Assembly (NCBI GenBank): GCA_018985235.1
Contig: JADGIG010000003.1
Span: forward strand, 1 to 64,000
Direction of reading: 5' to 3'
From: Sanchytrium tribonematis
Taxonomy: Eukaryota
Length of the DNA: 64,000 bases
A program made the position numbers and the translations under genes. Below are positions 877 through 64,000 of the stretch, in pieces. The notes below the pieces were generated by a model. It made no database searches. It was given only the letters and a program-made list of their open reading frames with translations, and was not told the DNA's origin. Position 1 is the stretch's first letter. Each line of letters begins with the position of its first letter.

Positions 877-2476
877 TTAATCATCTTCCGAAGAATCCGA
901 TTCTTGGACCTTGGATTCCTCTTCTTGAGCTGTTTCCAAATGAGTAAACTGTTTGGATTCATCCTGTTCCTCGTCCAAAAAGCTGACTCTTGTAGTAGGG
1001 ACATCGTCAATCTGTGAGCTTTCGATATCTCCTGTATGAATCTGTGATATATTCGCGCCGGGTTTCACTTCATTGCTAATATAAGGACTTTCTTCATGCC
1101 TTACAAAATCTTCCTCTGAGCTGAACTGCTGTTTTTCTAATATTTCTTCAGGACTTTCTGCAACTTGAATGACCTTTTCATTATCGTCATCTAAAAAAGT
1201 TGACTGCAGAATGTCTTCTTTGACGACTCCCAAGTGGTTTTCTTCACCAGAATAATCAGCAGGAGCTTGATTAGAGGCTATGTAATTTTGTGTTGAAAGT
1301 AAAGTGTCCTCCACAATTGGAGTAGCATTTTTGTGTACAACCACCGTACCATATTGAGAAGCAATTTCATTATCCGCTGATAAAGATGCTGTTCCTTTAA
1401 TATTTGATGGTTGAACTTCCTCCTTCATTTCAGTAGCTTTGACACTTGCTACATTGATCTTGTCTTTCTCGAGTTTCTTTCCTCGTTCGACTTTCTTAGC
1501 CCTACAGGTCCAATAAATTATGGAAGCCAAAACAAAAACTCCCAGTATACCTGCAGAAACTGACATAAGTATCACAGAGGCTTTTTTCTGTGCCTTTTTG
1601 TTGTATATATCGGCTACTCTCAAGTCCGAAGAGCCGTATGTAATTTTGGACCCTGCATATACGGGATCATTGCCATGCCGGTACTCAATGATAAGCTTTT
1701 TTGGTTTTTCGAATTGTAAATAAAATGGCGAATAGTAACTAAATTATTCTGAAATACCCATTTCCATAAAGAAAGTGAATTGTATTATAATAGCAACCCG
1801 AGTTAGAGGCCTCTTGGCTAGAAAAACATAAATTTGTGGTGTACACAGTTACTTGACAAATATCGTCTCTAGTATTCCAAACGCCAAAATATCGCAATTC
1901 GCAGATTTTGATTATTGTTGAATTAGATACTGTAGCATTAAAATTCAAATTAAATCTCCCATAATCATTATTAACAATATCAGCAGCGCTGAAATTAAGA
2001 TAATTAACTAAAGGCGTTCCAGAGGATCTAGGAATCTGATCGTTCACTAAAATTCCTGTCATGTTGAACTCTTCAGGATTTTCAGGATAGTCAATCTCGG
2101 TAGTATATCTTAACACATCGTAGGTAACTTTGGATTTATTCTGGACAAATTCGTCAAATTTATTCGGCGTTGTTGATGGTTTCAATGGGATAAATGAATT
2201 TTCAGTATATACTTCGGAGAAACTTTTGTCGGATACAAACGCCTTGGGTTCTTGATTACCAAAGTTGTTCTTACCGCCAGCTTGCCAGCTATCAACAATA
2301 ACTTGAAATTCATCAAGTCGCTGTTCCAACTCAGAAACTATTGAGGCACTAGAAATATAAAACTCTGCACCGATCACCATCATTGGAGTGCATATACCCG
2401 CGATAACAATAAGAGCTACTATGAAAAAGATTCCGTGAATAGAACATAATCTCTTTTTGGTTTTATCAAATTTCAT
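877..2476 (-). CDS. Uncharacterised membrane protein, 526 aa, with two hydrophobic segments around an Asn/Cys-rich loop and an acidic tail; exons 2476-1758 and 1738-877
   Basis: ORFs 1739..2476 and 877..1623 join in frame after removing the 19-nt intron at 1739-1757 (YGNG|YYSPFY). Confidence 0.7.
1739..1757 (-). other. 19-nt spliceosomal intron GTATTTCAGAATAATTTAG
   Basis: GT-AG ends and TNAYNYAG 3' end; removal fuses two ORFs in frame. Confidence 0.8.
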
Positions 2477-2613
2477 ATCGAAACTTATGGTGGCCTAGAA
2501 ATGTAGTTATTGGTTTTGAGTTGAGACCGTATTTAATATTTTATGGAATGAATTTATTACATCAACATAATTTAATAGGTATAATATTTTGCAGTTAGCT
2601 TGCTGTTCTCCTT

Positions 2614-3417
2614 ATGAAAGTTTTTCTCACAGGAAAGCAAACTTCACAAGTTTCTCAGATAATCAAAGAAGTCTCACAACATATTGAAAAATTTCATGAA
2701 ATCACTACGGACCCGACCAAATGCTCCCTAGCGCTTGTTTTTGGGGGTGATGGGTCCTTGCTTCGTGCAAATACCCTTTTCCCTATGAAAAGTCCTTTAG
2801 TCATGGGATTTAAGATGGGAACCTTGAATTTTATGATGCCTTTTGAGTTTGAGGACTACAAAAAACATTTATTGGATATTGATAATTTTGACATTTTGGA
2901 AAGAAACCGATTTAAGGTATCGATAAATGACAAAGAATGCGGTATAGCTCTCAACGATGTTGTGGTTAGCCGCAAGTCCACACAATTACTGGGCATGTCC
3001 ATATCTGTTGGATCGGGAACTAGAAAACCACATATTTTAAATCAAATGAATGCGGACGGAATGATCTGTTGTACTCCAAGCGGCTCTACTGCGTATAACT
3101 TGAGTGCTGGAGGACCACTTGTGCATCCCAGAATATCAGGAATAACAATAACTCCAATATGTCCCCAAACGCTCAGTTTTCGACCTTTATTGGTTCCATT
3201 TTATCGTAATAATGATCCAGTTTCTGTTAAAATTGTATGTAATGATCCTGCCAAATTGTCAATCGATGGAAATGAACTTGATCTTAATGCGGACGATTCC
3301 GTGTCCATTCAAGTTAGCAAATATCCCTTAAAATGTCTTTATCCGCATCAGACAAGTTGGATAAGTGACATCTCTAAAATAGTTGGATGGAATAGAGGTG
3401 GTTTCCCTCATACTTAA
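2614..3417 (+). CDS. NAD(+)/NADH kinase
   Basis: GGDGS, LNDVV, DG..CTPSGSTAYNLSAGGP and TPICP motifs. Confidence 0.93.
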   Translation: MKVFLTGKQTSQVSQIIKEVSQHIEKFHEITTDPTKCSLALVFGGDGSLLRANTLFPMKSPLVMGFKMGTLNFMMPFEFEDYKKHLLDIDNFDILERNRFKVSINDKECGIALNDVVVSRKSTQLLGMSISVGSGTRKPHILNQMNADGMICCTPSGSTAYNLSAGGPLVHPRISGITITPICPQTLSFRPLLVPFYRNNDPVSVKIVCNDPAKLSIDGNELDLNADDSVSIQVSKYPLKCLYPHQTSWISDISKIVGWNRGGFPHT

Positions 3418-3502
3418 AGTCACATTACTTTTTGTAATTTTTATAATTAAATAAAGTAATAAAACTCAAATTTCTTTTTTTCCATAAACAAGGGGATAGT
3501 TT

Positions 3503-3997
3503 ATGGATTATCTTTTTTTACTTTCACGTCAAGGTAAAGTTCGATTGGCGCAATGGTTTATCACTGCAAACCAGTCTGAAAAACAAAAAATTGTAAATGA
3601 TGTCGTCGCTATTGTACTGAGCAGAAAGCAAAAATTAGCTAACATTGTAGAGTACAAAAATATGAAAGTGATATACAAAAGATACGCATCGCTGTACTTT
3701 GTGATAGGCACATCTAATCAAGATTGCAACGAATTGTTAATAATGGAAGAAATACATAGATTTGTTGAAGTATTAGATAGATATTTTGGAAATGTGTGTG
3801 AATTAGATTTAATTTTTAATTTTCACAAGGCATATTACATATTAAACGATTTTCTTATGTCGGGACAACTCGTGGATACCAGCAAGAAAAGCATAGTCAA
3901 AACAGTCCAAAGTGCTGACCAAACTGCAGAACTTGGTGAGGAAATTACTGGAAGGCAAGCCTCTCAATATGGCGGAGATTGGTATAGTAATCGCTAA
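3503..3997 (+). CDS. APS1: AP-1 adaptor complex sigma subunit
   Basis: SRQGKVRL.W, YKRYASLYF and YFGNVCELDLIFNFHKAY motifs. Confidence 0.9.
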   Translation: MDYLFLLSRQGKVRLAQWFITANQSEKQKIVNDVVAIVLSRKQKLANIVEYKNMKVIYKRYASLYFVIGTSNQDCNELLIMEEIHRFVEVLDRYFGNVCELDLIFNFHKAYYILNDFLMSGQLVDTSKKSIVKTVQSADQTAELGEEITGRQASQYGGDWYSNR

Positions 3998-4001
3998 TAA
4001 A

Positions 4002-5523
4002 TCATTTACTCGAGTCTCTGATTTCCTGTAGAAGCACTTTTATTTCTCGAACTTCGATTTCAATATTTTGGAGAATACCGGTCTTGGTTGGACTTGGAGT
4101 GAAAATCAACTGGAAAAATAAAATTGAATTAAATGTTAACAGCAAGATTATTATCATTCTGCTAAGGTTGAGGTAATTATACATACCCGAGGCGATTGGC
4201 TGAATAGTTTCCAAAAAATTTGCTGGGCTAGTTTTCCGAAATTTCTCTTTTTTTTGTTTAACATGGCGGTTCTTGACTCGTTTTCGTTTGCCACCACCGT
4301 TGATTTTGTCACATATGGCTTCATCCAGAAGGACGTAGTGGGATTTTGTTCCATCTAGTGCGCCTCGCTCGATAGGGCCTTTGATAAACGAAGATTTTGA
4401 CCACTGTATGCAAGAAGAAACTCTAAATTTAATGGATTGCGGTCCACAAGATGTAATGCATATTTTCGTCTGGGTTAAAAAACTGGAGCCCGAAGGAACA
4501 TCGCTAAATAAATTAGTATTACGGTGTTGCGGTTGTTTGTGTTAAATGAATATGAGATCTCAAGTCTTTCTCGTCCACAACCTCGTCAACATATGTTTTA
4601 ACTTGTTTTGGCCCTAATGGATTTGTTAATGGCATTATGTATTCGACGTGTCTAGACTGCTTTTCAGTTTCATTCGCAGGTTTCCATTTGCCGGTATTCC
4701 ATTCTGTGATTCCTTTAGTCTGGGTATGAAATAAATGACTAAAGCCTCCATCGGAATAGCTTTCGTCAGAATATATTAGATCCCAACAAGCAGCAACTGT
4801 AAATGGCGAGTAAGTTGTTTCAAACACAATATTATCACTGTCACAAGGCTCTTTCGAGTCTCCGTTCGGAATTTTGATTAAATTATCGGTATATTGATTT
4901 GGCTTCTGTGTTGATAAATCTGGGTTTGAGGCTGATTCCGATACCTTTCGTGTGTGAACATTTAAATCGTTTTCAGAATGCGCTCTATGTCTCGTAGAAT
5001 TATCGACCGTCAAGGTGTCTTCATCCTCCGTATCGTCGCTTTCAATCAAAGCTGAATTTTCACTTGACAGTCCCAATGAAAAATCACTTTGATCTTCCAA
5101 ATAGCTCATATCGTTTCCAACTAGTATTCCACTAACTGCACTTCTCCACATTGATATCAAAATATTATAAGCTAAATCTCTAAAGACGAATGAAGCAAAA
5201 AAATATTTCTTATGCTGATTTGTGTACAGCATAAGAGCATTTGGTAAAACAAATGCGGAGTTTCTTTTTTCAACTTTTACAATATCAGAAAACTTGACCA
5301 TGATCGAAGTTGTCCAGCCTAAAATGTTGGAGTAGAAGCCTACAGCATTATGACTTATGTAAAGTCTTCCGTGAACCAGGATGTCTTTCTGAAGAGCACA
5401 TGAAAAATCTTCAACCAATTCGCTCTCGTCCCCCTCGAATATAGTATGGAATTCTTCATTTTTTCTTTTATTTGTAGGCAATAGCGGCGAAGTACTATTT
5501 GCAGGATCTGCATTGGATTGCAT
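4002..5523 (-). CDS. GRAM + VASt/StART-like sterol-transfer protein (Lam/GRAMD1 family) with C-terminal TM and coiled coil, about 500 aa; exons 5523-4523 and 4503-4002
   Basis: GRAM motif DFSCALQKDILVHGRLYIS. Splicing out 4504-4522 restores the VASt TPDVPSG motif and runs in frame into ORF 4002..4214. Confidence 0.88.
4504..4522 (-). other. 19-nt spliceosomal intron GTAATACTAATTTATTTAG
   Basis: Removal gives ...TATP-DVPSGSSF, a conserved VASt motif. Confidence 0.92.
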
Positions 5524-5719
5524 TTTTTCTTGTTTTAGTGATCTAAAGGGGGGAAATATATAAATGTGCGTTTTTGATCGATCTTGGTTTATAATAATTT
5601 GGATCATTATTTACAGCGATATCTCAGGAAGAAAATTTTAAACCAATTTTTAGGAAATTTGACACAAAATCGCAAATAAAATATTGAAAAACTAATTTTG
5701 ATTCCCCTTACAAAACCCG

Positions 5720-10276: not shown

Positions 10277-12521
10277 ATGGACGAACTTATTCCACTTATA
10301 TTTAAAAGTGACTCAAGCAAACTCACTAAAGCGGTTGACATATATTTAGGTGAAGATGCAGAACTTCCTGACTTCTCGTTTTCATTAAATCCTCCCCCTT
10401 TGCAACTGATATCAAAAACAACTGCTGATGCCCAATCTTATTCTGAGCAACTTCAAGCCATCATTCAACCCATCCAACAGCTTCATAATACTAAGGAGCA
10501 CATCAAGCAAAGCATTGAATTTTTTACGTATTTGTATGCTTTTGTTGGTGACCTCAAATTGTTAGAGGTTGGGTACGAGCAAGGCAGCTTTCCATTAGAA
10601 CCTCTGAGGAACACCAAAAGACTCTCATTATATTTGAAAAAATACCAAGATATATCATTGATATCAAAGGGTTTGGCAGACTACAATGATCTTCAGGAGA
10701 AAATGTACAAACGTGCAAAATCCAGTTTATTTGAATCATTTAATCCGACTGGAGTCTTCATTGGAGAAAAAGAAAAAGTGAAACATTGTCTTTTGTTTAT
10801 TACGGAAATGAACGATCGTTACAATGAGATATCTGTAATCAGACATCAAATTATTTCCCTTCACCTAAAAGAATACGAGGGAATGTTTTCGCAGGATTTT
10901 ACTCTTGAAAATATTCCTAGAAGATTCGCTTGGTACAAGAAATTGCTCAAGCAAGTGGAACCTATTTTAGATATTTTCCCTGCATCTTGGGCAATGTCGA
11001 CATCTTTTGCAACCGAATTTTGCACTGTAACCAAGTATGCGATCGGTGAAATTCTTAAGAAAATCAATGCCAGTTTAAAAGTAGAAGAATTCGTTAAAAT
11101 GTTGCTTCTATCAATTGAATATGAAAACCAAATGGCAAAATTGCATAAAAATGAGTCATTTGTAAATTGTTTATCTAGTGCTTTTGAACCGTACATGTTC
11201 CATTACATAGAATATGAAAAGAAAAAGATTTCAGCTTTTTTAGAAGAAGTAAAGAAGTTGCCTCTTAAAATTACCGAAGAAGATAGATCAATATCTCTCA
11301 TTTCCAAAGTAGTAGCTTTTTTTCAAGAAATTAGAATTATAATGGCACAATGTTTGAAAATGACTAACGGCAAACCTTTTTTAGAAATAACAAAATTATT
11401 TGACGATAATATTCTCGCATTATCTGACATTTTGGTATTCAAACTGCCCAAATCTGATGTTTATGGGACAGACGACTATATTTATTCCGCTTATGTCATA
11501 AACACCTTGGATTTTATTTCAAACTCTACCGAGCAATTGCAAAAGAAATGTCAAGAGAGCATATCCCCAAAATTTTCTGAGCAAATAAGTCTGGAAAAAT
11601 CGAGCGAGCATGCGTTTAATAATATATCGAAAGTCTCAAAATTGTTACTCGACTTGATTTTGATATTCACTAAGTCTGAATTTGCAAAAGTTGACAAAAG
11701 AGTTTGGACCACTTTACAAAATACGGGTGATTCTAGCCCTTATGCAGTCAATGTTAGCAAGCATGTTTTGAATTTTGTACCACTCATACGTGAAAATATT
11801 TCCAAATCTCAATTTTTCAAATTTATATCAGATAAAGTCGTCATAGAATTTAGTTCATTAGTGCACGATCAAATTTGGAAGTGGAAGCCAGTCAGTCAAG
11901 TCGGTAATTTTTATTAATTTAGGGGCAGAACAGCTACTTCTGGACTTGCAGTCTCTTAAAAATTGTATGATGAGTGGAGTATATCCTCCTGGAAATGATT
12001 CAAACGCGGCAAAATTTCATCGCCAAACTGTATCCAAATGTTTTCAGAAATCTGAGGTTTTACTCAAAATTGCTATGAATCATTTACAAGTTGCAGATGT
12101 ATTGGTAAATACTTTTGTAATGATGACAGACACAAATACCGAAGGTAATGTCATTGCCTGCTCTACTGAGGAAATATTTAAAGAGAAATCCCGCAAAAGG
12201 TCATTACTAAAATTATTAGAATTTCGGGGTGCACAAAAGGCTGATATTACAAAGATCATGGACAAATACACGACTTTGTACAATGATACAGAGTCAGTGG
12301 ATCTGACATTAAAAGAAGAGGACAAATCTACGCAAGGTAACTGGAAAAAATTGTTTGCGACTCCACCTCCTGCACCAATTCAGCCAAACCCCCTATCACC
12401 AGTCAACACCAATCCGTCATCAGAACCAAAAGTGCAGCAATCTGGTACCATGCCGCCTTCTGTTGCTCCGACCGCCACCGCAGGATTTATGAATTACTTT
12501 AGCAGCTTCAATAAAAAATAG
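10277..12521 (+). CDS. VPS53: GARP complex subunit Vps53, 741 aa; exons 10277-11903 and 11923-12521
   Basis: LENIPRRFAWYK, IFPASW and FEPYM motifs; splicing restores VGAEQLLLD. Confidence 0.88.
11904..11922 (+). other. 19-nt spliceosomal intron GTAATTTTTATTAATTTAG
   Basis: Removal restores Vps53 SQVG|AEQLLLDLQSLK. Confidence 0.93.
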
Positions 12522-12522: not shown

Positions 12523-15271
12523 TTACTTTTTTCTGCCTCTTCCTCGACGTTCCTCTTCGTTATAATATTCTTTTTGAACAATTGAAACAATAGTTGTAAC
12601 CCTTCGCTGAATTTCGAGCGAAGACCGGGACTTTAAAAACCAATCAAACCGCATCAAAGGGCTTGTTCGTATATCTTGTAATATTAAATCACTTACATTT
12701 TCAGTTCCATATCCGTGCTTTGTTAAAGACATTAGCTAAATGAGATCAAAATACAATGAATCGGTCTTCTTCCTCCGTAAAATTTTTTCTTCCGCTGGCT
12801 TGAGGAAGTTTAATTTGATACATAGGGTATTTATAAGACTCAACAATAGACTTCAATCTACTTTGAATTTCTTCACTTTTTCGCAGTTTCTCTTCACCTT
12901 TCTCGATTTGCTTGCTGATTTTTTCGAAATCAGACAATTCCGACCACCTTTCAAAAAATACCTCGTGATATCGTTTTACTTCGTCCTCGGCTTTTCCAAT
13001 TCTTTCCATGTCTGCGCAGATATCAACAATAGAACTTCTTCCATATTTTTCGCATGCTTTAATAAAGGCACGATAATCACGAACACCCCAATTCTTAAAG
13101 CCATAGTTTGAAAGATGTTCCAGCTCAGTTTTTTCTTCTGTAGTTAGATCTTCTGCATTATCTATCTTTTCTTGATCTCTCGCTTGGTCTGCTAAAAGCT
13201 GCTCTTCAGTAGTATCATCATCATCGACCAACTGCAATGGGACTCGATATCCCATCTCCTTTTGGTAAAAAAGGGTTTCCTTTTTCTGCAGCTCGTGTAC
13301 TCTGGTTGGATAAAACTGAAATTCTAGCAAAGATAATTGATTTGGAGGTCGAGGAGCCTGTTGCTGACGTCTACCCTTTTCGGAGTATATGTAGTTTTTA
13401 CGCTCTCTCTTAGAAGGTTCAATGTAACTCAGACCTGCGGCACCAGCTCCTCGCTTTGCTGCAAATTGAATAGCGTCAATAGAGCTTTCTAAACGTAATA
13501 AATCCTCTATGCGAACGTTTTCAAACTTATTGTTCAGTTTCAGAGTTTTTTCTTCACCTAATTTTAATATGTCATCAATATCTTCGTCTATGTTTATTGG
13601 ATCCTCCTCGTTGAATACCTCTGTAACACCATGTTGAATCATCGCCAAATAATCATTATCGCCTTCTTTTGCTTGGTGATTCAACTTTCCTTGCTGAATT
13701 ACCATTTTGTCAAGCTGCAATTTCTGCTGAGCTCGCTCTAAAATTTTTTCATCAATAGCGTTTTCAGTGACTAGTTTGTAAACAAAAACTTGCTTGGTTT
13801 GACCAATTCTATGAGCACGATCTTCAGCTTGCAAGTCGACTTGGGGGTTCCAATCACTGTCGTACATAATCACAACATTAGCGCTTGTCAAATTAATTCC
13901 TAATCCACCAGCTCTGGTCGTCAATAAGAATACAAATTTATCTTCCCCGTTGTCGTTGAATGCATCAATAGCATCAATACGATCTTCGTGGGCAGTTTGT
14001 CCATCTATACGACAGTATTGGAATTGTCTCCATAAGCAATAATCCTCTAGTATGTCTAACATTCTAGCCATTTGACTGAAAACCAAGACCTTTTGGCCGT
14101 TTGCTTTGAATTTTAATAAAAGCTTGTCTAGCAGCTTCATTTTGGCACAATTTTCTACCAAATGAATGTCAGTAGTGTATGGTGGCCCAGGTTCCGCTCC
14201 TTGAAATAAGTAAGGATGGTTCGTACACTTTCTCAACTGCATGACAATGTTTAAGAGTCGAGTCTTTTTTTCCTTTTTGGATCCCACAACCCCATTGACA
14301 GCATCGATATTTTTCTCTAATATCGCTCTATACCACTTTTTTTGCATTGGAACCATTTTTACGTATAGATTCATCCTTTTTTTGGGAGGAAGACTGTGTT
14401 CAACATCACTTTTTAATCTTCTTAACATAAATGGTCTCAAAATTTTATGAAGTTGCTGAATTTTACCATCTTCGTTGCCTTCGCCATTCAAAACCCATTG
14501 CTCAAATTTTTCAGAGTCATTGAAAATGTCATCCATCAAAAAATATAATAATGCCCACAGTTCTTTTAAATTGTTCTGGAGAGGAGTTCCGGTCAAAAGG
14601 AGCTTAAATTTCGCGCGAAATCCTCTTGTGATTGTTGAGAGTTGAGATTCAGCGTTTTTGATTCGATGAGCTTCATCAATTATGAGAGTGTGCCAAGGCA
14701 TTTTCCCGAATACTGATTTTTCTCTCAGAACAATTTCATATGATGTGATGCAGACATCAAAATTTTCTTCCTTAAGCCTATTTTCGATCAAATTCGCTCT
14801 AGTCTCCTTATCACCATGGAGCACAAAAACATCAATGTCACTAAATTTTTTAAATTCCTTTTGCCAATTATCAAGAGTAGATTTTGGGGCTATGACAAGA
14901 TGTATTCCATCAATCTCTTTAATATATTTTAAGTAGCCGATTAAAGAAATACTTTGAATGGTTTTACCTAAACCCATTTCGTCTGCTAAAATGCCATTAA
15001 TTTGGTGATTGTACAAATTAACAAGCCAATTGAGTCCGTGAACTTGATAGTCTTTTAAAGTACCTTTTATGTAAGCAGGCGATTCTTCCAAAAAATCCTC
15101 ATCAATTTCCGGGTCATTATTATCATAAGTTGCATTAAAACGGGCACCTTGTGTTTTTTGACCCTTTTTTTGAGTTGCCAATTGCTTAAGCTTCTCCTCT
15201 GGAATAAAGTCCTTAAACAACTCAGTTTGCCCTAGCAGATACCTATATTTTGTAAGTTTATCAGTGGACAT
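12523..15271 (-). CDS. ISWI-family chromatin-remodelling ATPase (SNF2 helicase + HAND-SANT-SLIDE), 909 aa; exons 15271-12755 and 12735-12523
   Basis: [28 protein letters not shown] and [16 protein letters not shown] region FTEEEDRFI|LMSL...FDWFLKSR. Confidence 0.95.
12736..12754 (-). other. 19-nt spliceosomal intron GTATTTTGATCTCATTTAG
   Basis: Phase 0; removal rejoins the SLIDE domain. Confidence 0.92.
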
Positions 15272-17373: not shown

Positions 17374-18937
17374 TTAATTTCTTCTCTTTCTGCGCTTGAC
17401 TACAACCATTTCATCATCCATATTGATTCTTCTAATGAATTCGTCCCCAAATTCATCAGCATCAATTGGGTTGACATTCATAGCTAAAAGACTATCAACA
17501 ACAAGTTGCTTTTCAGCCAATTCTGTTATTACATTGATAGCGTGTTCTGGTACACCAAACTTTTTGCACTCACTTTTGCACCATTTTATAAAATCTGCTG
17601 ATCTTTTTGAAGATTCGACGATGGCAGTAATAGAAGGTTGTTTCTTAATAGGAGTAGGATTATTATTGGCCGAGAATTGAGGCTTACGAGAAACTGGCAC
17701 AGCAACTTGAGATACAACTGGGGCAGGTGGTTTAACTACTTTACGGATTTGAGAACTTTGACCAACAACGGATGCCCAACCGTGTGAGACAGTCGGTTTT
17801 ACTTTTCTAATTTGCTCGGCCTCAATAGCAGTAATACTGGTAGGAGATGGTTGGTTCACTTTAGCCCAACCTTTCCAATCATTTCGAGTGGGAAGTGGCC
17901 CTTCTAATTGCTGTTGCAATTCAATATCACTGAAATCATCAATTTTATGTTCAGGTAACTGAGACCAATTTTTAGGTGAAGCTACATTGACTTCAATACT
18001 GGAATGACGTCCCCTAAATTCAGTTTGTTGAATAGGGGAGCTAGAGTTAGAGCGCAGGGGCGAGCTCTCGTTGAAAGTAGGTGATTTTTCACGCGCATTA
18101 ATGCCCATATTAGTCAGCATATTTAGAACGTCTTGGTTTTCAGATCCATTCGGCGACTTTTTTGATGTTTGCTGGCTTAGCTGCTGTTCAAGATCAGATA
18201 CTGTCATTGTTTTGTTTAGTATATTCAATAAAGATGAACCCCCAATAGAAGGTGATGAATCATAATTTCCTAATATACTGCCAATATGTCCAGGTGATGA
18301 CGCCTCTGATCTTAAGCCGATTGCATCTTTCAATGCAGTATTTTTGTCAAGTTTTTCTGATTTGGATAGCATGGGTGAGTACTGAGGAGCGGAGGACGAT
18401 ATTGGAGATTCTTCCAAAGCACCCCCCAAAAGCTCTTCATTGTTGACATTAAAGTCAAATGAATTACCGTTTTGTTGCACAAAGTCAAAAGGATTGTCAG
18501 TACTTAGACCTAATAGAAGAGTATATTTGTCTAAACGGATCCAGTCAACTTGGTTTTCACTAACATCAAGCGATAGATCAAAATACTTGTTACTAAACCA
18601 TTTTTGCATTTGGTCTGTGGTAAAAGGACCTTGTATTTTCCCTACATTAGTTATATATACCACTAGGATCTTTGTAATAAAACGTTTGGAAAGGTGATTT
18701 AGGAATGTAGATGTCCAGATTTAATTCAGTTTTCGAATTGTCTCTTCGAGCCGGTTGTGGATTTTGAAATTTTTTCTTAGGTTTTTTACGTAGCTTACTA
18801 ATGTAATCAAGATATGACATGTCATCACCGAGAAGTTCCGGATCTTGCGGATCAAGAAAGAGTACTAAGTCATTGTTTAGTGGTATTTCCGGATTGCCAG
18901 GTTTTGTTAATTTCGCAGTAGGAAATGTTTGTAACAT
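17374..18937 (-). CDS. GYF-domain protein (Smy2/GIGYF-like), 514 aa; exons 18937-18661 and 18641-17374
   Basis: Splicing restores FYYKDPSG|KIQGPF...MQKWF..KYF; C-terminal F..WC...F..EF..R pattern. Confidence 0.82.
18642..18660 (-). other. 19-nt spliceosomal intron GTATATATAACTAATGTAG
   Basis: Removal rebuilds the GYF domain; contains ACTAAT with the A at -6. Confidence 0.92.
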
Positions 18938-20593: not shown

Positions 20594-21269
20594 ATGACAG
20601 CTGGAAATCTTAGAATCGGTTCTACAGTTCCGAACTTTGACGCAGAAAGTACTAAAGGAAGGATCAACTTTCATCAATTTCTTGACAACAAATGGACTAT
20701 TTTCTTTAGTCATCCTCAAGATTTCACTCCAGTCTGCACAACTGAGCTTGCTGAAGTTGCCAAATTGACACCAGAGTTCGAAACCAGAAACGTTCAATTG
20801 ATTGGGTTGAGTTGTGACTCTATTGAAAATCATCATAAATGGATTAAAGACGTTGAAGAATATGGAAAGGCTGCAGTTAAATATCCTATCATTGCTGACT
20901 ATGATAGAAAAGTTGCTCTTCTCTTTGATATGTTAGATGAACAAGATGCCACCAATGTCGACGAAAAAGGATTACCATTAACTGTGCGTTCAGTTTTCTT
21001 CATTGATCCAAAAAAAATCATCCGAGCAATTATCACTTACCCTGCAGCAGTAGGAAGAAATGCGCAAGAATTATTGAGAGTAATTGACAGCTTTTTGCAA
21101 ACTGAGAAAATTCCAAGCGCAACGTAATATTTTGTAACGTAGTCCTGTTAATTGGAATAAAGGTGACAAGATCATCATACCACCCACAGTAAAATCTGAG
21201 GATTCTTTAAAAAAGTACAAGAACATCCAGTCTATTAAGCCTTATTTAAGATTTGCTGACCCTCAATAA
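20594..21269 (+). CDS. 1-Cys peroxiredoxin (Prx6 family), 218 aa; exons 20594-21123 and 21143-21269
   Basis: FSHP.DFTPVCTTE; splicing restores ATPVNWNKGD and the C-terminal KPYLRF. Confidence 0.95.
21124..21142 (+). other. 19-nt spliceosomal intron GTAATATTTTGTAACGTAG
   Basis: Removal restores the conserved AT|PVNW. Confidence 0.94.
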
Positions 21270-24593: not shown

Positions 24594-25665
24594 ATGGATG
24601 CAAATTTTATTAATAAAACTAGAGATTTTATAATGGCCTCAATGTATTCCAGAAGATGGAATCAAGTCAAAGAAATGTTTACACATTATTCCGATGTAAA
24701 TGGCTCGTACTGGATTTTAGGAGTCCATTATGAGAACCAAACTTTTTTGGATGACTTAAGAACAAGGCCATGGTTTACTTACAGGTACGGATTTCCGCCG
24801 GTCTCAGGGTACTCAACCGATTCTGGCTGGGGCTGCATGGTAAGAGTTGGACAATCATTATTGGCGAATGCATGGATAACATTAAAATTGGGCAGGCAAT
24901 GGAGGTTGCAAAATGACCAAGAGTATATAAATATTATGACGCAATTTTTGGATACAGAAGGTCAGCAATTATCGCTTCACAATATAGTAACCACCGGTCA
25001 AAGTATATGTTCTAAGCCAATTGGAGAGTGGTTTGGAACCCACACCATTGCGATGACCATGAAGCATTTGGTGAATGGACTTCCGAAAAAACCATTTTCC
25101 ATCTACGTCGCAACTGATGGCACGATATATGACCACGAGATTAATCAGTTCCCTTTACTTTTATTAATTCCTTTAAGATTGGGTTTACGTGAAATACCCC
25201 CCGAAAATTACGAGCACATTAAAGGTTGCTTAAAATTACCGTGGTGTAATGGTATAGCTGGTGGAAAGCCAAATTCCGCTCTCTTTTTTGTTGGATTTCA
25301 AGACGATAACTTGATATATCTGGACCCACACATTTCTCAAGAAGTTGTTCCAATAGACAATATTAATTTTGATTCATTCAATAGCTATCATGTTGATGTA
25401 AACAGGCCGAGTCATAAAATTCCATTGTCTCATCTTGATCCAAATATTTTGCTCTCATTTACTGTTCACACTAGAGCCGACTATGAAGAACTGTTAAAAG
25501 CATTTTCTGATCTGGTATAATTTTTTAATATAGAAACTTGGATCAATTGGTACAAGACCATCTTCGGTCCCAAGTATCTTTTTTGTTGACAAATCTGGTA
25601 GCCGGATAGAGGATGAGAATATACACTTTGATGACTCAAGTGATATAGAGGATTCCACAATATGA
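24594..25665 (+). CDS. ATG4: Atg4 cysteine protease (peptidase C54), 350 aa; exons 24594-25514 and 25534-25665
   Basis: WFTYR, DSGWGCM.R.GQ, GGKPNSA and YLDPH; splicing adds an acidic C-terminal tail. Confidence 0.93.
25515..25533 (+). other. 19-nt spliceosomal intron GTATAATTTTTTAATATAG
   Basis: Matches the intron consensus, contains the apparent stop, and leads to an in-frame 43-codon acidic last exon. Confidence 0.8.
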
Positions 25666-29912: not shown

Positions 29913-31948
29913 ATGGGTTTGCTTTCTACAGGTACACCGTTAGAGTGGGATCAGGCAGCTAAATACGCTGATTTTATTAGGAGAAACGGTATTGAACAAC
30001 TTATTAATAATTACCATCATCAAAAAGGAAAGACCAATGACTCTTTGAAGTGGGGTGACGAAATTGAAAGTATCTTGGTCCGTTGGGTAGAAATTGATGG
30101 GAAACAGACAGCTCTGTTAAGCATGAGAGGATATGAATGTTATGAGGCATTATTGGAGAAGGAATTGGTGTCTATCAAAAATGGTGAAGAAATTCCAGTC
30201 TTGTGGAGGCCCGAATACGGCAAGCATATGATGGAATCCCTGCCTGGTAAACCCTATGGAAGTACAATCAAAGACTTGCTTTTTGTTGAAGAAAACATGT
30301 GCAAACGCAGAGCTGTGTTACAAAGCGTATTGCGCCCTAATGAATATCTGTTGAATGTCACGAATTTTCCATTGATGGGCTCATTGACCCATAAGTGGCT
30401 TGATGCAGACATCGATATGAATGCAAACGACTTGGTAGGTCACGGTGGTGAACATGTTCAATTTTCAAGAAGTCTGTTTATACCAGACGAGTTAATTAAC
30501 CCTCACCCGAGATTTCGAACACTAACTGCAAATATACGTAATAGGAGAGGCCATAAAGTTGGTATCAATCTTCCTATTTTTAAGGACAAAAACACTTCTT
30601 CGCCATTTTTAGAGAATTTGCCAAGGCCACAGGGTTATCAACATCCTTATGACACCAACGAAGCATTACCAGATCATGTCTATCTTGACTGCATGTGTTT
30701 TGGGATGGGTTGTTGTTGCCTACAATTAACATTTCAATGTTCAAATATAGATGAAGGGAGACGATTATTTGATCAGCTCGCACCCCTGGCCCCACTAGTC
30801 ATGGCTCTATCTGCTGCTTCTCCAATATTCAAAGGCTACCTAACTGACCGAGATTGTAGATGGGAAGTGATTTCTGCAAGTGTGGATGATCGAAATCCAT
30901 TTGAAAGAGGAAACCTAAATTCGAAAGATTCGATTCACATTCCTAAATCGAGGTATGGTCCTATTAGTACTTATATATCAAATTATCACGACTTTGACGA
31001 TAGATACAATGATACGGAGCTCGTTGTTGATGCCGATGTGTTTAAGAGACTAATGGAAAGTGGAATGGATTACAGGTTAAGCAGGCATTTTGCACATTTG
31101 TTTACTAGAGATCCACTTGTAATTTACAAAGAATTGTTAAAGCAAGACAATACAAAAGTGACTGATCACTTCGAAAATATAAATAGCACAAATTGGCAAA
31201 CTATGAGATTCAAGCCTCCTCCTGATTTTACTTCTGACATTGGCTGGAGAGTTGAATTTCGATCAATGGAAGTTCAACCTAGTGACTTTGGAAACGCCGC
31301 ATTCTCAATTTTCATAATTTTATTAACGCGTGCTATTATTAGCTTTAATCTAAATTTTTACATACCTATTAGTAAAAATGACGAAAATTTAGAGCGAGCT
31401 CATATCCGAGATGCTGTGAATCTTCAGAAATTTTGGTTCAGGAATCAGGTGCAAAATTACAATGACACACATGAAGAAAATGATTCTAATATTTGCATGG
31501 ACATGAATGATTGCTGTACTATTGAGTATAAAAAGAAAGGTTTTGGCAGATTTGGTAAATTAAAATGTACAAGTGAATTTGAAGAAGAATTGTGGTCAGA
31601 AATGACTCTGGATGAGATTTTTAACGGCAAAGTATATTTTTATTAATACAGAAAGGTGGATTTAAAGGTTTAATTGCAGTGGTCGAAAGTTATCTCAATT
31701 TTCAAAAGATTGGAGTAACAGAAAGGTGCCAGCTTCAAACATATATCAGCCACATACGTGATATTGCCAGTGGTAAAACACCAACTGTTGCAAGTAGTAT
31801 TCGTGAATTTGTACAATCTCATAAAAGTTACAAAGGTGATTCAATCATCAATGAAGAGATTACTAGTGACCTTTTAAAGATGTATAACAAATCTCTGGAT
31901 AGCAACAGTCCATTTTTTGACACTTTGAAAGATTGTGGGTGCATTTAA
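29913..31948 (+). CDS. GSH1: Glutamate-cysteine ligase catalytic subunit, 671 aa; exons 29913-31631 and 31652-31948
   Basis: MGLLS.GTPL, WGDE.E, FGMGCCCLQ, PKSRY and GWRVEFRSME; spliced join reads NGK|KGGFKGLI. Confidence 0.96.
31632..31651 (+). other. 20-nt spliceosomal intron GTATATTTTTATTAATACAG
   Basis: Phase 0; the only 20-nt intron and the only CAG acceptor; removal restores NGK..F.GLI. Confidence 0.9.
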
Positions 31949-33026: not shown

Positions 33027-33049
33027 ATTTTTAAAACAAGTTTATCAAT

Positions 33050-44907: not shown

Positions 44908-45807
44908 TCACCTCAGAAATAGCATTTGCTCGATCTCATCCTCGTAATCGTCCACTTCAATCTCTATAATCTCAAGATAATCTAATTTTGAGCCTTTTGG
45001 TTTGTCCAAGGTTATAAACTGCGTGAAGGATTCATGTTCAATAACATTTTGATCAAGCAAATCTGTATTAATATTTAACTGTTGATTTCCAACTTTACAG
45101 GAAAATTTATAATGCATATGGGACGAGACCCAGAATTTGGGACGAAATTTTTGAATCAGCTTTAATGTATAAGGACTGCCTAATTTAAAATTATCTATGT
45201 CTTCTTTAAACCAAGGGCGATCATTTACAATTCTATTTTTGTCGCCATAAAATGCAATATTTGCAGGCCAGTCATGGCTCAATCCTATGTCAAAGCTGCC
45301 TGAAAAATTATTAAGCAATTCATATTCTTCTTTTCTTGTGTGGTAAATTTTGCGCATGGTGTCATTATTTAAGGGAGCCTTTTCGTTTCTTGGCAGATTA
45401 AAATCCTGTTCTTTATAGATACCCGACCAACCACAGATCCCAACACCCTTAGCTTTAATTATATTACAATAACCCATATAATAAAAATTTGGAATTAGAA
45501 AACCTCCCTTGGAAAAGTCCATTAAATATTCAGAACATTCGTGATTTCCTCCTATTGCAATTGTTAGTATTGGGATTGGATCTCCATGGTAATAGTGATG
45601 AAAATCACCTAGCTTTTTATATTTTTCTGGCACAGCCATACTGCTTAAATCGTTTTTATTTCTTGCCGTTTGCAAATCTCCCGTCAATAAGACTACATCA
45701 ATTTTTCGCCCAACACGTTCCTCAAATTGCTGCAGGGTGTTGTAAATTCTATGCAGTTCACCGTGTACACATCCTACCAATGCTACCATTTTTGTACTTT
45801 TAGCCAT
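44908..45807 (-). CDS. DBR1: RNA lariat debranching enzyme (catalytic domain, 299 aa)
   Basis: GC.HG, GD.Q..RN..DL..MAVP.KY, IGGNHE, SHDWP, H.H and LDK motifs. Confidence 0.9.
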   Translation of the reverse strand: MAKSTKMVALVGCVHGELHRIYNTLQQFEERVGRKIDVVLLTGDLQTARNKNDLSSMAVPEKYKKLGDFHHYYHGDPIPILTIAIGGNHECSEYLMDFSKGGFLIPNFYYMGYCNIIKAKGVGICGWSGIYKEQDFNLPRNEKAPLNNDTMRKIYHTRKEEYELLNNFSGSFDIGLSHDWPANIAFYGDKNRIVNDRPWFKEDIDNFKLGSPYTLKLIQKFRPKFWVSSHMHYKFSCKVGNQQLNINTDLLDQNVIEHESFTQFITLDKPKGSKLDYLEIIEIEVDDYEDEIEQMLFLR

Positions 45808-50280: not shown

Positions 50281-51876
50281 TTATTTAGCCGCGCAGATCG
50301 TCTAAGCGGTGCTGGTTTCACCTCGATCTCTTCATAAATATCTTCCTTAGAATCTGATTTGAATTTGAGTGGCATACCAGGCTTCCATGAGTCTTTTTTA
50401 GTTTTTTGCTCGCCTACTTTCTAAGTGAGTAAAAATTACTTTCCATAAATTATCCACTTCTTCCTCAATTTGCTGTGCTTTTAAAAGGTTCATCGCAATA
50501 TCTTCTTTAACCGCACAAATTGAACTTTCAGCTGTGGTGACACTGTGCTCAAATCCAACCACAAACTCTTCTAAACCCTCCAATATAGGTAGCCAATTAT
50601 CTTTAAAAAATTTATCCATGGCGTCAGTCAAATTTCTGTTTGTTGCTTTGGTTTTTACTAAAATAGATACAAGTCCCTTCTCATTATCTACTGCGTCCAT
50701 CTTATTAATAATCTCTTCGCCTTTTTTCATTATATTTACGAGGGGCTCAAATTTCTTATTGACGGCATCAGAAAGTTGATTTCTAAGTGTTTTCACTTTT
50801 TCTAAAGTATCCTGAACATCTTTAATTGTTAATTGAGTCATCATTTGTTGTAGCTGGTCCTCGTAATTAGAAGATTTAAATTTTTGAAATATTTGATAGT
50901 CAGAACCTTGTAGTAGGTTCAATTCTAATATGCTTTTTGAGCGTTGTAGGAGATTATCCAAATGGTATTTTCTGGGATCAATTTGTTCCTTTTTCATGTC
51001 TTTATAAAGTTTCAAATGTTCCAAAATGTCAAACGGCAATACGGTCGAAAACAGTGGATCGACTTGAGGCAAAAAATCTGTGTTCAATTCTGAAGATATA
51101 ACATCTTCAGGGACAATTCCTGCAATTTCTTCTGGTACAATTTGGAGATAAATCATGTCATTATCTTGTTTTGCAGATTTTAAAGATTCTTCAACTGAAT
51201 TATACAACTCAGTGAATTCTTGTGAATTGATCCAAAATGACTTTAAGCAGGTAATGCAATCTTCTAGTCGCTTGATCTGCAGACCATATTTAGTCTGACT
51301 TTGCAAGTCTTTCGATGAATAAAAATATGCTAAAGCCTGGTTGTAAGCGTACAATTCAGTGTTTCCGGACTTCTTGAAATAAATCGCAGCCTGTTGAGCT
51401 ATTTTGCATGAAAGGGAAAATGACTTGTTTTGTTGGATCAATTTTTCAAGAGCCAGAGAATGAAGCTTTCCTTTAATATAGAAAAGAAATCTACTTGTAA
51501 ATGGGTTATCAAATTGGTATTTCTTAATTATGTTAATATTGTTGGCTTCATTTGCCAAAGCAAGGGCTTTTTTTAAAACGTTTACATCATATTCACCCAG
51601 CAACTCAGCGGCCTTAATAAGGGTACACATTCTTTCAAATTCAATATGATTTACAGATAAAGCAGAACCTTCAATATTCCAGGTAAAGTATAGTTCGTCG
51701 AGTTTAAACTTCGCCAAATTTTCTAGTTGCACCAAATATTCTAAAACGTCTGGCAAGTTGTCTGACATTCTCAATTTCAAAATCTTGTTAAAGTCATGAT
51801 GAGGAACTGATAAATCTAGGTTCTGCAATTGCAAGATTAACGGTTTAAAACTAACTAGTTCAGGATTCACTAACAT
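50277..51876 (-). CDS. BRO1-domain protein, PalA/Rim20-like, 526 aa; exons 51876-50440 and 50420-50277
   Basis: F.W, FER, YG..I.RL and KQDNDMIYLQ.VP; the spliced tail contains WKPGMPLKF, like the PalA C-terminal W.P...I.F. Confidence 0.78.
50421..50439 (-). other. 19-nt spliceosomal intron GTAATTTTTACTCACTTAG
   Basis: Hidden inside the track's ORF; removal opens a 47-codon exon that fills the apparent intergenic gap. Confidence 0.85.
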
Positions 51877-59739: not shown

Positions 59740-59985
59740 ATGTCTTCTGCAATTTACGACGAAATAGAATTTGAGGATTTCATTTATGACTCTGTTTCTA
59801 AAATATTTACATATCCGTGTCCTTGTGGCGACAATTTTGTTATTTCTCTTAATGATTTACTTGAGGGAGAGGACATTGCCAAATGCCCTAGTTGCACCTT
59901 ACAAATCAAAGTTATTTATGAAATAGAAGACGTTGAAGACTTTGAGGAAGCTGAAATCAATGAAGTTAGTGTGAAAGCCTGCTGA
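59740..59985 (+). CDS. DPH3: Dph3/Kti11 CSL zinc-finger protein
   Basis: YDEIE.ED, YPCPCGD.F and CPSC.L motifs. Confidence 0.93.
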   Translation: MSSAIYDEIEFEDFIYDSVSKIFTYPCPCGDNFVISLNDLLEGEDIAKCPSCTLQIKVIYEIEDVEDFEEAEINEVSVKAC

Positions 59986-60609: not shown

Positions 60610-60638
60610 TAAGTAACAAGGAGCATAAAAGTTTTATT

Positions 60639-61412: not shown

Positions 61413-61462
61413 CAATTATGAAGAGGTGTTTCAAATTGGGAAATCCTATATTTTTCGGAAAA

Positions 61463-62287: not shown

Positions 62288-62331
62288 GTGATACAAAGGA
62301 TACAAACAATTTAAAAAAAATGCACAGTGAT

Positions 62332-63129
62332 TTATTCATCCGAAAACTCATCAGAATAATTTTCTCGAAATTCTTGCCTTCTCGCCCTTCGTCTAGGTCT
62401 ATTAGTGTTACCTCTACGAGATTCATCATCTACCGGCCTGGTGACTTCATCGTCAGAGTATATGTCTTCTCTTTCTACTATCCTTTCTCGCCTTGGTCTT
62501 TTATTTGTCCTCTTTGGTTTCTCTGGCTTATAAGTTACATGATTTCGCATAATATTAATGTCATAATCAACTTCGCTAGGTTTCAATTTCTCGCCAGGTC
62601 TACCCAGAGGCTTCTTTTTCGAATTCGCAAGTCTTTCCAGTATTTCTTCCGGAGTTTCACTATCATTAAGTATCATCTTAGAATACGGCATATTTGTGTC
62701 ATTAGATATTTTGCCTGGGTCTTTCCGGCCAAAGCTGGTTACAGAATTTTGATTTCGGTCAGTTTCAATTATTTTTTTGCGTTCATTCAGGACTTCCATG
62801 AAATTTCCAAAAATGGAATCGGATATTCTGATAAAATCAGCTTCTATGTAATCTTTCATGTTTGTGGCTGTTTTTACAGCTTCTTCTGATATGTTTTTAA
62901 ATGTTTCCTCCGATTCTCGTATCTGGTCTATTCTATTCTTGTCTAGAAGTTTTTCATAATATTGTAGCAAAGGGTGCTGTTTTTGTGTAATTTGCTCCAA
63001 CTCCTTTTCTAGCATGCGAATTTGTTTTTTGTGAGGGTCTTCATGCTTTAGCTTTTTTACTTCTTCAGAAATATGCCAATATCTTTTTTCTGCGTCGCTT
63101 ATCCCAATTTCTTCACTGAGACTTCCCAT
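62332..63129 (-). CDS. Sds3/BRMS1-like Sin3-HDAC subunit
   Basis: LE.ELE.I....HP......L...R and L...E...D...M patterns. Confidence 0.6.
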   Translation of the reverse strand: MGSLSEEIGISDAEKRYWHISEEVKKLKHEDPHKKQIRMLEKELEQITQKQHPLLQYYEKLLDKNRIDQIRESEETFKNISEEAVKTATNMKDYIEADFIRISDSIFGNFMEVLNERKKIIETDRNQNSVTSFGRKDPGKISNDTNMPYSKMILNDSETPEEILERLANSKKKPLGRPGEKLKPSEVDYDINIMRNHVTYKPEKPKRTNKRPRRERIVEREDIYSDDEVTRPVDDESRRGNTNRPRRRARRQEFRENYSDEFSDE

Positions 63130-63282
63130 AATGTAACAAGGAGACACGTGTCTGATTGGTTTTGCAAAATAGGCTTGTCCAAAAATAAACCGAATAGTTG
63201 CATAAATTTTACTTATTAATATTCAACTGAATATTTGAATAGGGTTGGAATAAAATATAGAACTGTGTCCAAATTTGTACTC

Positions 63283-64000
63283 TCAAGATGATTTTGGGTG
63301 AGTCACATCCTCTCCCATAAGACTAGATAAACTAGATGAATATCGCTTATAATGTTGCTTTTTGGTAGTGTGAAATGAAAGTATAGCTGCCACAATGCTA
63401 GCAAACAAGGCGCCGAAAACCAAGAATAAATAATTATAATCGAAAGGAGTATCATTAGCGTCGATGTCTTTTGAATTCTCAGAATTTTTGTCTAAATGAA
63501 AATGAATTACATGATGATAGTAAAGAGTAAACATTGAAACAATTTTGCAGTGGTGACGAGATTACTAAATTAGAATCTGTGAAAGTGACTGAAGCTCCAA
63601 ATCCACTGTTTGGAGACCCATACAATTGATCTAATTTATAATACGGGAGTCCACTATTTGGTTTCAAAAATCTAGATTCGTCGGAAAAAGCTTGCCCAGG
63701 TAAGTTTCTACTTAAAATTGAAACAAAAGGCTCGATTGGATCCGTGACTATTACGAAAAGACCATTTTTCATTGAACTTATTCTTGAGCCATTAATTGAC
63801 ATTGAACTATTGTATTTTAATGAATCTCTTTCATAAAAATTAATCTTGTCGTTATTTTGGGTAATCAAATAAAAGTCATTCAGAACTGCATTTATGATAG
63901 AGGAGCTTTGCTCTACTATCCTGACCTGTTTAAGCTTGAGATTTTCAATTTTAAATTGGGTAATTTCGTTTCCGAAAGTAAATATGTCAGAGTCATCGCA
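63283..64000 (-). CDS. 3' part of an FG-GAP-like repeat single-pass membrane protein (continues beyond the window); exons >64000-63511 and 63491-63283
   Basis: Open frame to the window edge; LYG..NSGFGASV....LVISSP; the spliced last exon encodes a TM helix and short tail. Confidence 0.65.
63492..63510 (-). other. 19-nt spliceosomal intron GTAATTCATTTTCATTTAG
   Basis: Joins ORFs 63479..63868 and 63283..63534 in frame (LLSSY|KNSEN). Confidence 0.85.

What the first reader, a model, noticed from the sequence alone, without database searches (positions are those of the whole stretch)
1739..63510. Near-uniform 19-nt spliceosomal introns in a fungus-like nuclear genome
Seen in sequence: all 12 frame breaks I found are repaired by one GT-AG intron. 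Eleven are exactly 19 nt (1739, 4504, 11904, 12736, 18642, 21124, 25515, 32854, 42815, 50421, 63492) and one is 20 nt (31632). Removal restores conserved motifs (TPDVPSG, VGAEQLLLD, GLNLQSADTV, ATPVNW, YKDPSGKIQGPF, EDRFILM), and every complete spliced CDS is a multiple of 3. Established: introns this small are known from Stentor and relatives (15-16 nt) and chlorarachniophyte nucleomorphs (18-21 nt), while microsporidian introns start in the low 20s. Inference: this is an independent origin of fixed-length micro-introns in the fungal/holomycotan lineage, needing a remodelled spliceosome. Gene finders with a 20-nt or larger minimum intron length would miss them.
Basis: partly seen in the sequence, partly recalled or inferred. 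Interest (0 to 1): 0.93.

Follow-up and report, generated by a model that had tools for sequence, protein, structure and literature searches.

The report
19-base introns in sanchytrid fungi
Twelve genes in this DNA from a sanchytrid fungus (a little-known group of algal parasites) are each broken by a 19- or 20-base GT...AG insert that is most likely a spliced-out intron, which would be shorter than the fungal and animal introns in the papers checked and would mean that published sanchytrid proteins are often cut short.

Summary
Observation confirmed. All 12 inserts lie at the stated places (11 x 19 nt, 1 x 20 nt), read GTA[A/T]...T-N-A-Y-N-Y-AG, and are 10% GC inside. In three genes tested blind to length and ends, homologues pick exactly 19, 19 and 20 nt. 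Pfam/PDB numbering runs on across the joints of VASt, SLIDE, Prx6, GCS and Helicase_C. The DNA is a sanchytrid: its GCS groups with Amoeboradix gromovi (83% identical), sister to Blastocladiomycota. Eight of ten close orthologues stop at the same sites, two of them published A. gromovi proteins. All four read-through tails long enough to test decode as 19 nt with the same branch motif (about 1% chance each); the four short tails exclude a strict 19. No RNA was available, so splicing is inferred. The sanchytrid genome paper called ORFs with TransDecoder and mentions no introns; no report was found in the searches. Introns lie mostly near 3' ends, unlike microsporidia. A. gromovi keeps U1, U2AF, SF3B1 and Prp8, so a stripped spliceosome is not supported. 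Verdict: a new, likely independent fungal case of a known kind (Stentor, Mikrocytos, nucleomorphs). The scan's index held no sanchytrid finding.

The parts
1739..1757 (-). 19-nt intron, phase 2, in a gene of unknown family (877-2476, 526 aa spliced)
   Evidence: Frame repair 245+287 aa and motif; no family found
4504..4522 (-). 19-nt intron, phase 2, in a GRAM-VASt lipid-transfer gene (4002-5607)
   Evidence: VASt profile 7-100 in exon 1 and 101-152 in exon 2
11904..11922 (+). 19-nt intron, phase 1, in Vps53 (10277-12521)
   Evidence: Vps53_N in exon 1, VPS53_C in exon 2; frame repair
12736..12754 (-). 19-nt intron, phase 0, in ISWI (12523-15271)
   Evidence: SLIDE 1-60 then 60-116; length-blind optimum 19 nt; relative P0002 breaks here and decodes as 19 nt; P0004 reads through
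18642..18660 (-). 19-nt intron, phase 1, in a GYF-domain gene (17374-18937)
   Evidence: Splicing joins YYKDPS to GKIQGPF; exon 2 starts at GYF profile position 9
21124..21142 (+). 19-nt intron, phase 2, in a 1-Cys peroxiredoxin (Prx6-like; 20594-21269)
   Evidence: Exon 1 residue 172 aligns to 168 and exon 2 residue 1 to 174 of PDB 5ykj, five residues apart in both, so no gap
25515..25533 (+). 19-nt intron, phase 0, in Atg4 (24594-25665)
   Evidence: 3 of 3 relatives, including A. gromovi P0246, stop at the same site; P0248 decodes as 19 nt with an x-L-G frame after it, matching the window's K-L-G
31632..31651 (+). 20-nt intron, phase 0, in glutamate-cysteine ligase (29913-31948)
   Evidence: GCS profile 1-291 then 291-370; optimum 20 nt; A. 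gromovi P0241 breaks here and decodes as 19 nt; P0123 reads through as the spliced form
32854..32872 (+). 19-nt intron, phase 2, in a divergent Prp19 spliceosome gene (31976-33026, 343 aa)
   Evidence: Frame repair; U-box and Prp19 domains; nine of ten Atlas rows named Prp19, all ten carrying PF08606
42815..42833 (-). 19-nt intron, phase 2, in Sth1/Snf2 (41638-44761)
   Evidence: Helicase_C 2-81 then 83-110 with the joining residue between; optimum 19 nt; 80 of 80 distant loci are unbroken at this site
50421..50439 (-). 19-nt intron, phase 0, in a BRO1-domain gene (50277-51876)
   Evidence: Relative P0249 (60% identical) stops at the same site and its tail decodes as 19 nt
63492..63510 (-). 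19-nt intron, phase 1, in a gene of unknown family that runs off the window end
   Evidence: Frame repair 163+69 aa and motif only
44908..45807 (-). Dbr1 lariat debranching enzyme (context: lariat turnover is encoded)
   Evidence: PDB match E 1e-57 to RNA lariat debranching enzyme

Best explanation
The twelve 19-20-nt GT-AG inserts break conserved genes of a sanchytrid fungus and are most likely U2-type spliceosomal introns shrunk to a near-fixed minimal size that is likely shared across Sanchytriomycota. Shown: length, ends, the invariant T-N-A-Y at -8..-5, frame and domain repair, and the same break sites in relatives. Inferred mechanism: the 5' GUA(A/U) is read by U1/U6; U2 pairs loosely with an AU-rich (U/C)UNAY so that the A at -6 (position 14, or 15 in the 20-mer) branches; the lariat loop is only 14 nt; and the 3' AG is taken a fixed 5 nt after the branch A, leaving no room for a pyrimidine tract. 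Deletion bias in a compact parasite genome would push lengths down to a steric floor set by 5'-site-to-branch plus branch-to-AG spacing. Because 19 and 20 are not multiples of 3, and 10 of 12 carry an in-frame stop, unspliced messages would give no full protein.
For: Sequence anatomy. Length-blind homology optimum in 3 of 3 genes. Continuous Pfam/PDB numbering over the joints of VASt, SLIDE, GCS, Helicase_C and Prx6. The broken genes include Prp19, Sth1 and ISWI, which argues against decay (their essentiality is recalled, not tested). 8 of 10 close orthologues end at the same sites with different tail letters. 4 of 4 long tails fit 19 nt on all six 3' motif letters, against 23 of 2,283 random tails. 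P0123 carries the spliced GCS sequence unbroken. Prp19 and Dbr1 lie in the window, and core snRNP proteins are annotated in A. gromovi. Same branch-to-end spacing as Stentor (A at 10 of 15 and 11 of 16; PMC9505925).
Against: No transcript or lariat was observed, so splicing and its efficiency are inferred. Only 12 introns in one 64-kb window were seen; no whole genome was held. The four short tails exclude 19 nt under the strict motif: P0246 and P0247 fit 20 nt on two letters; P0122 fits 17 nt or 20 and longer; P0242 excludes 14-22 nt unless the motif is relaxed. So the clade's range may be wider than 19-20. Two close orthologues (P0123, P0004) have no break. The branch A is inferred from invariance alone. 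The placement rests on one quick SH-aLRT tree with a long branch plus 76-83% identity to named A. gromovi proteins; the ISWI tree had no sanchytrid name or outgroup.
Confidence: 0.9

Rival explanations
1. The introns are real, but 19-20 nt is only the mode of a wider distribution (for example 17-30 nt, or a minority of long introns) that one window does not show.
For: n = 12; two short tails of relatives (P0122, P0242) do not fit 19 or 20 cleanly; microsporidia keep a few long introns beside short ones (PMC6349667; 22-76 nt in E. cuniculi).
Against: The motif scan over 14-60 nt found no other length more than twice; no hidden 3n intron was seen in GCS or ISWI exon 1; all four fully testable tails give 19 nt.
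Confidence: 0.25
2. The inserts are removed by a non-spliceosomal route (Ire1/tRNA-ligase type cleavage, as recalled for the roughly 20-nt hacA intron of filamentous fungi) or are excised from DNA.
For: The size matches the recalled Ire1-type intron; 19 nt is below the fungal spliceosomal sizes found in the papers read.
Against: GT-AG ends and an invariant branch-like A in 12 of 12 unrelated genes, with AT-rich cores and no shared exon sequence; spliceosome and Dbr1 genes are present. Hairpin structure at the joints was not tested.
Confidence: 0.03
3. The breaks are assembly errors, pseudogene frameshifts or sites of translational recoding, and the GT-AG look is chance in AT-rich DNA.
For: The loose motif alone is only weakly enriched at 19 nt (15 vs 8.2); two genes have no homology check.
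Against: Short deletions score clearly worse than 19/20 nt (GCS 90.7 at 2 nt vs 103.1 at 20 nt); the same sites are broken in 8 orthologues from other genomes; X1 contigs show no indel there (not independent).
Confidence: 0.02

Closest known systems
Heterotrich ciliate (Stentor coeruleus) 15-16-nt introns (PMC9505925, passages)
   Same: GUA start, AG end, AU-rich, branch A sixth from the 3' end, two adjacent lengths, most core spliceosome proteins kept
   Different: 19-20 nt with a 14-nt lariat loop instead of 10; invariant T two bases before the branch A; about 0.24 introns per gene in a compact parasitic fungus rather than thousands in a large free-living ciliate
Mikrocytos mackini / Paramikrocytos 16-17-nt introns (PMC10245619, section read)
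   Same: Parasite with a narrow two-length class (217 x 16 nt, 7 x 17 nt) and conserved intron sequence
   Different: Rhizarian; spliceosome cut to 17-19 proteins and no introns in metabolic genes, whereas here GCS and Prx6 carry introns and A. gromovi keeps U1, U2AF and SF1 proteins
Chlorarachniophyte nucleomorph 18-21-nt introns (as described in PMC10245619 and PMC2483917)
   Same: Same size class; 19 nt typical
   Different: Relic endosymbiont nucleus with over 800 introns in about 300 genes; the range includes 18 and 21 nt, which were not seen here
Microsporidian introns (E. cuniculi 22-76 nt, PMC3629993; PMC6349667)
   Same: Fungal-related parasites with short GT-AG introns
   Different: Longer, few, extreme 5' bias, U1 snRNA not identified; here shorter and mostly in the 3' half of genes
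Myxobolid myxozoans and Dicyema (median 22-27 nt; PMC13644364, first third read)
   Same: Ultra-short introns in parasitic opisthokonts
   Different: Longer medians, not one fixed length as far as read; animals

Membership tests
U2-type spliceosomal introns | GT...AG ends | tested here: met
   12 of 12
U2-type spliceosomal introns | Branch-point adenosine motif near the 3' end | tested here: met
   T at -8, A at -6, Y at -5 in 12 of 12; the motif also fits 4 of 4 long tails of relatives; use as branch point is inferred
U2-type spliceosomal introns | Removal restores the conserved protein | tested here: met
   not testable for 1739 and 63492
U2-type spliceosomal introns | Excision from mRNA through a lariat | not testable with these tools
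   Needs RNA from the organism
U2-type spliceosomal introns | Spliceosome encoded in the lineage | tested here: met
   Prp19 and Dbr1 in the window; U1-70K, SF1, U2AF65/35, SF3B1, Prp8, Brr2 in the A. gromovi supplement; snRNA genes not seen in this window
Fixed-length micro-introns (Stentor / Mikrocytos / nucleomorph type) | Under about 22 nt with one or two lengths | tested here: met
   11 x 19 nt and 1 x 20 nt in the window
Fixed-length micro-introns (Stentor / Mikrocytos / nucleomorph type) | Holds genome-wide | tested here: inconclusive
   No genome held; 4 tails fit 19, 2 fit 20 weakly, 2 ambiguous
Reduced spliceosome (microsporidian / mikrocytid type) | Loss of most factors, including U1 components | tested here: not met
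   A. gromovi annotation holds U1-70K, U1A/U2B, Prp40, U2AF and 61 occurrences of K128xx codes, of which 2 rows were read; U1C (K11095) and Prp19 (K10599) had 0 hits in a file cut at 4 million characters
Sanchytriomycota | Clade with Amoeboradix gromovi, sister to Blastocladiomycota, on a long branch | tested here: met
   GCS tree: 100 for the clade, 98 with Blastocladiomycota (quick tree, SH-aLRT); 82.6% (GCS) and 76% (Atg4) identity to EukProt A. gromovi proteins; species not determined
Ire1-type (hacA/XBP1) unconventional intron | Stem-loop cleavage sites without GT-AG or branch point (recalled) | tested here: not met
   GT-AG and branch motif in all 12; folding not run

The most novel reading that the evidence does not exclude
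The whole fungal phylum Sanchytriomycota has converged on 19-20-nt introns, the shortest standard intron size in any opisthokont. They are spliced by a largely complete, U1-containing spliceosome across a 14-nt lariat loop and sit mainly near gene 3' ends, the reverse of other intron-poor fungi. On the window's rate, about a quarter of the genes in published sanchytrid proteomes are truncated or split.
Probability: 0.6. Interest if true: 0.85.

Novelty: new member of a known kind. Interest (0 to 1): 0.76.

Why it matters
The lower size limit of spliceosomal introns is an open question, so far approached in ciliates, mikrocytids and nucleomorphs, all far from yeast. A true fungus with 19-nt introns and recognisable fungal spliceosome proteins allows direct comparison with yeast structures, and swap tests in yeast. 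It adds a likely independent origin of fixed-length micro-introns, below the 22 nt reported for E. cuniculi and myxozoans. The 3' position bias runs against the usual pattern of intron-poor fungi and bears on how introns are lost or gained. In practice, published sanchytrid proteomes were called without an intron model: two A. gromovi proteins checked end at an intron, and 12 of about 50 genes in this window would be cut. Gene-loss claims for the group therefore need re-checking.

Tried and rejected
No whole genome is held, so no genome-wide scan was possible. Run search: one DNA holder (X1, flagged as a possible source) and no RNA holder listed; its contigs were laid on 1-40000 only, not on 40001-64000. 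A broad GT/GC-AG join search gave 961 candidates and was too noisy. The loose motif count was weak. The metagenome scan with Sth1 exon 2 kept 80 of 447 relatives, all distant and none broken at the window's site, so no relative's intron DNA was seen directly. Extra candidates rejected: 2579-2598 and 59792-59810 (no upstream ATG frame or no branch motif), 29766-29784 (no branch motif), 52799-52817 (antisense to an intact ORF), 3206-3220 (in frame, no matching insertion against NAD kinases). Hidden 3n introns: none among the 14-60-nt motif hits looked credible, and alignments of GCS and ISWI exon 1 showed two small insertions without GT-AG; other genes were not aligned. Rfam found no snRNA in the window. 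The careful GCS tree did not finish; the quick tree was used. The short Prp19 (343 aa against 472-542 in 9 of 10 Atlas rows) was not taken as spliceosome remodelling, because other proteins here also look short, such as the 334-codon COG3 ORF (normal length recalled as about 800). A 23-nt difference at 20492 between X1 and the window is not GT-AG. Whether intron positions are ancestral was not resolved.
Full report
1. Observation. The window is gene-dense, 35.3% GC and uses the standard code, with about 50 genes by my count from the ORF list and Pfam scan. All 12 inserts are at the stated places: 11 of 19 nt and 1 of 20 nt. Removing each joins two open frames (for example 643+392 aa in Sth1, 582+98 in GCS), while the unspliced frame stops within 1-13 codons. 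All start GTA[A/T]; counted from the 3' end, -8 is T, -6 is A, -5 and -3 are pyrimidines in 12 of 12; core GC is 10.5%. Ten of 12 contain an in-frame stop and none is a multiple of 3.

2. Is it chance? A loose motif without the branch term gave 15 hits at 19 nt against 8.2 +/- 2.6 in 50 shuffles (max 15), which is weak. With the branch term, 12 of 34 hits between 14 and 60 nt were 19 nt, against 0.6 expected (max 4 in 200 shuffles); no other length had more than two hits. That motif was learned on the same set, so I ran two non-circular tests. First, every frame-restoring deletion of any length and ends around three joints was scored against 30 homologues each (of 43, 55 and 76 available): the best length was 20 nt for GCS (1,942 candidates), 19 nt for ISWI (1,328) and 19 nt for Sth1 (1,334). 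The called insert ranked 2nd, 6th and 2nd overall, within 1 point of the maximum, and first among GT..AG choices. Second, domain numbering is continuous over the joints: VASt 100|101, SLIDE 60|60, GCS 291|291, Helicase_C 81|83 with the joining residue between, GYF resuming at 9, and Prx6 without a gap against PDB 5ykj. The inserts at 1739 and 63492 have no homology check.

3. Organism. The best named hits are Blastocladiomycota (Paraphysoderma for ISWI and GCS, then Sorochytrium for GCS). Much closer unnamed ENA proteins exist at 70-85%. The cluster of one of them holds EukProt EP00835 Amoeboradix gromovi P004475, and the closest Atg4 hit is A. gromovi P000543. In a 42-row GCS tree (quick method, SH-aLRT only) the window, A. 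gromovi and three ENA rows form a clade at 100 on a long branch, sister to five Blastocladiomycota at 98. This matches the placement and the roughly 35% GC reported for sanchytrids (PMC8371127, first part of Results). A 26-row ISWI tree groups the window with two ENA rows at 100 but had no outgroup or named sanchytrid. At 82.6% (GCS) and 76% (Atg4) the window is a sanchytrid other than that A. gromovi record; the species was not determined.

4. Relatives. Of 10 close orthologues seen, 8 end at exactly the window's intron sites, each continuing with V (a GT codon) and a different short tail: GCS P0241 (A. gromovi), P0122, P0242; ISWI P0002; Atg4 P0246 (A. gromovi), P0247, P0248; BRO1 P0249. Such tails are intron read-through, so their letters constrain the DNA. 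The four tails long enough to test all six 3' motif letters (P0241, P0002, P0248, P0249) fit 19 nt and exclude every other length from 14 to 31; 23 of 2,283 random GT-started tails would fit. After 19 nt, P0241 can continue x-G-G-F, as in the full-length relative, and P0248 x-L-G, as in the window. Against a strict rule: the four short tails exclude 19 nt under the full motif. P0246 and P0247 fit 20 nt on two letters, exactly as the window's true 20-mer does; P0122 fits 17 nt or 20 and longer; P0242 excludes 14-22 nt unless the motif is relaxed. P0123 (GCS, contigs up to 13 kb) and P0004 (ISWI) read straight through in the spliced form: either precise intron absence or transcript-derived records. 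Eighty distant Sth1 loci are all unbroken at the window's site.

5. Position. In 9 of the 11 complete genes the intron lies in the 3' half (median 0.81; KS p = 0.019; sign test p = 0.065; first ATG taken as start), and the twelfth is at 0.70 or later. The motif scan was blind to ORF position and a search at ORF starts found no credible 5' intron, so this is unlikely to be a detection bias, but n is small. Microsporidian introns show an extreme 5' bias (PMC6349667, passage).

6. Mechanism. Shown: anatomy and frame repair. Inferred: ordinary two-step U2-type splicing with the branch at -6, a 14-nt lariat loop and a 3' site fixed 5 nt after the branch A. The branch-to-end spacing equals Stentor's (A at 10 of 15 and 11 of 16; PMC9505925, passages); the extra four bases lie between the 5' site and the branch. 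The window itself encodes a divergent Prp19, which carries one of the introns, and Dbr1. The A. gromovi eggNOG table (supplement file 4 of PMC8371127, cut at 4 million characters, searched by term) has U1-70K, U1A/U2B, SmB, SF1/BBP, Brr2, SF3b4, Snu13 and U5-40K rows, and one occurrence each of the codes for U2AF65, U2AF35, SF3B1, Prp8 and Prp40 (counts only). U1C and Prp19 codes had none. SF1/BBP appears as two adjacent ORFs on one contig, as an unrecognised intron would produce. So the spliceosome is not stripped as in mikrocytids (17-19 proteins) or E. cuniculi (30 ORFs, no U1 snRNA found). Finer remodelling near the lariat, as proposed for Stentor, is plausible and untested. A deletion bias meeting a functional floor is the model offered in PMC10245619 (section read); I adopt it as inference.

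7. Comparison and novelty. Known fixed micro-introns: heterotrichs 15-16 nt, mikrocytids 16-17 nt, nucleomorphs 18-21 nt. Shortest opisthokont values found: E. cuniculi 22-76 nt (PMC3629993, passages) and myxozoan medians of 22-27 nt (PMC13644364, first third). The sister phylum is intron-rich (PMC9730499, passage; Allomyces 1.30 introns per kb in PMC8476143, passage), against roughly 0.24 per gene here. The sanchytrid genome paper predicted ORFs from contigs with TransDecoder; 'intron' occurs once, in a reference title, and 'splic' not at all; the preprint has neither; the TPPP paper has it only in a reference. Searches for sanchytrid+intron (2 papers), Amoeboradix+intron (9), Sanchytrium+genome annotation+introns (3) and Sanchytri+intron (9) listed nothing on sanchytrid nuclear introns; three of those papers were opened, the rest were seen as listings only. 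Wider searches listed no fungal 19-nt case. Subscription journals, the paper's main supplementary PDF, its orthologue table and one scanned file were not readable and could hold a mention. Also seen as passages: PMC5381614, PMC2483917, PMC4435813. The scan's own index had no sanchytrid finding and none for this genome; it notes 26-29-nt introns in Rozella (e1-7125510), which I did not check.

8. Verdict. A real feature; spliceosomal introns with about 0.9 confidence, pending RNA. It is a new, likely independent member of the fixed-length micro-intron kind, apparently the first below 22 nt in fungi among the papers searched, with a 3' bias and a largely kept spliceosome as points of difference. 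Interest 0.76.

Noticed in passing
window 31976-33026 (+): Divergent Prp19 of only 343 aa (Atlas relatives mostly 472-542 aa) that carries one of the 19-nt introns; the Prp19 code was not found in the stored part of the A. gromovi annotation, so it may have been missed there rather than lost.
   Followed up: partly
window 44908-45807 (-): Dbr1 lariat debranching enzyme of 299 aa.
   Followed up: partly
all 12 introns: Strong 3' position bias (9 of 11 complete genes; KS p = 0.019) and never two introns in one gene.
   Followed up: partly
P0123 (GCS) and P0004 (ISWI), ENA: Close sanchytrid-like relatives lack the break: a lineage with precise intron loss, or transcript-derived records.
   Followed up: no
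window 22647-22883, 34346-34408, 39923-39949, 5735-5788, 19435, 20492: X1 contigs differ from the window by clustered SNPs and by 9-nt and 23-nt indels, none in introns; suggests heterozygosity or mixed strains.
   Followed up: no
window 33035-34039 (+): COG3-like ORF of 334 codons holds only the N-terminal domain and ends against the next gene; much shorter than recalled for COG3.
   Followed up: no
window 39219-40151 (+): C-5 cytosine methyltransferase (Pfam DNA_methylase), possibly Dnmt2-like; its ORF overlaps the next, Rad9-like, ORF.
   Followed up: no
window 60639-62335 (-): Two tandem alpha/beta-hydrolase (Abhydrolase_2) genes.
   Followed up: no
PMC8371127 supplement file 4, rows 1135-1136: A. 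gromovi SF1/BBP is annotated as two adjacent ORFs on one contig, as expected from an unrecognised intron.
   Followed up: no
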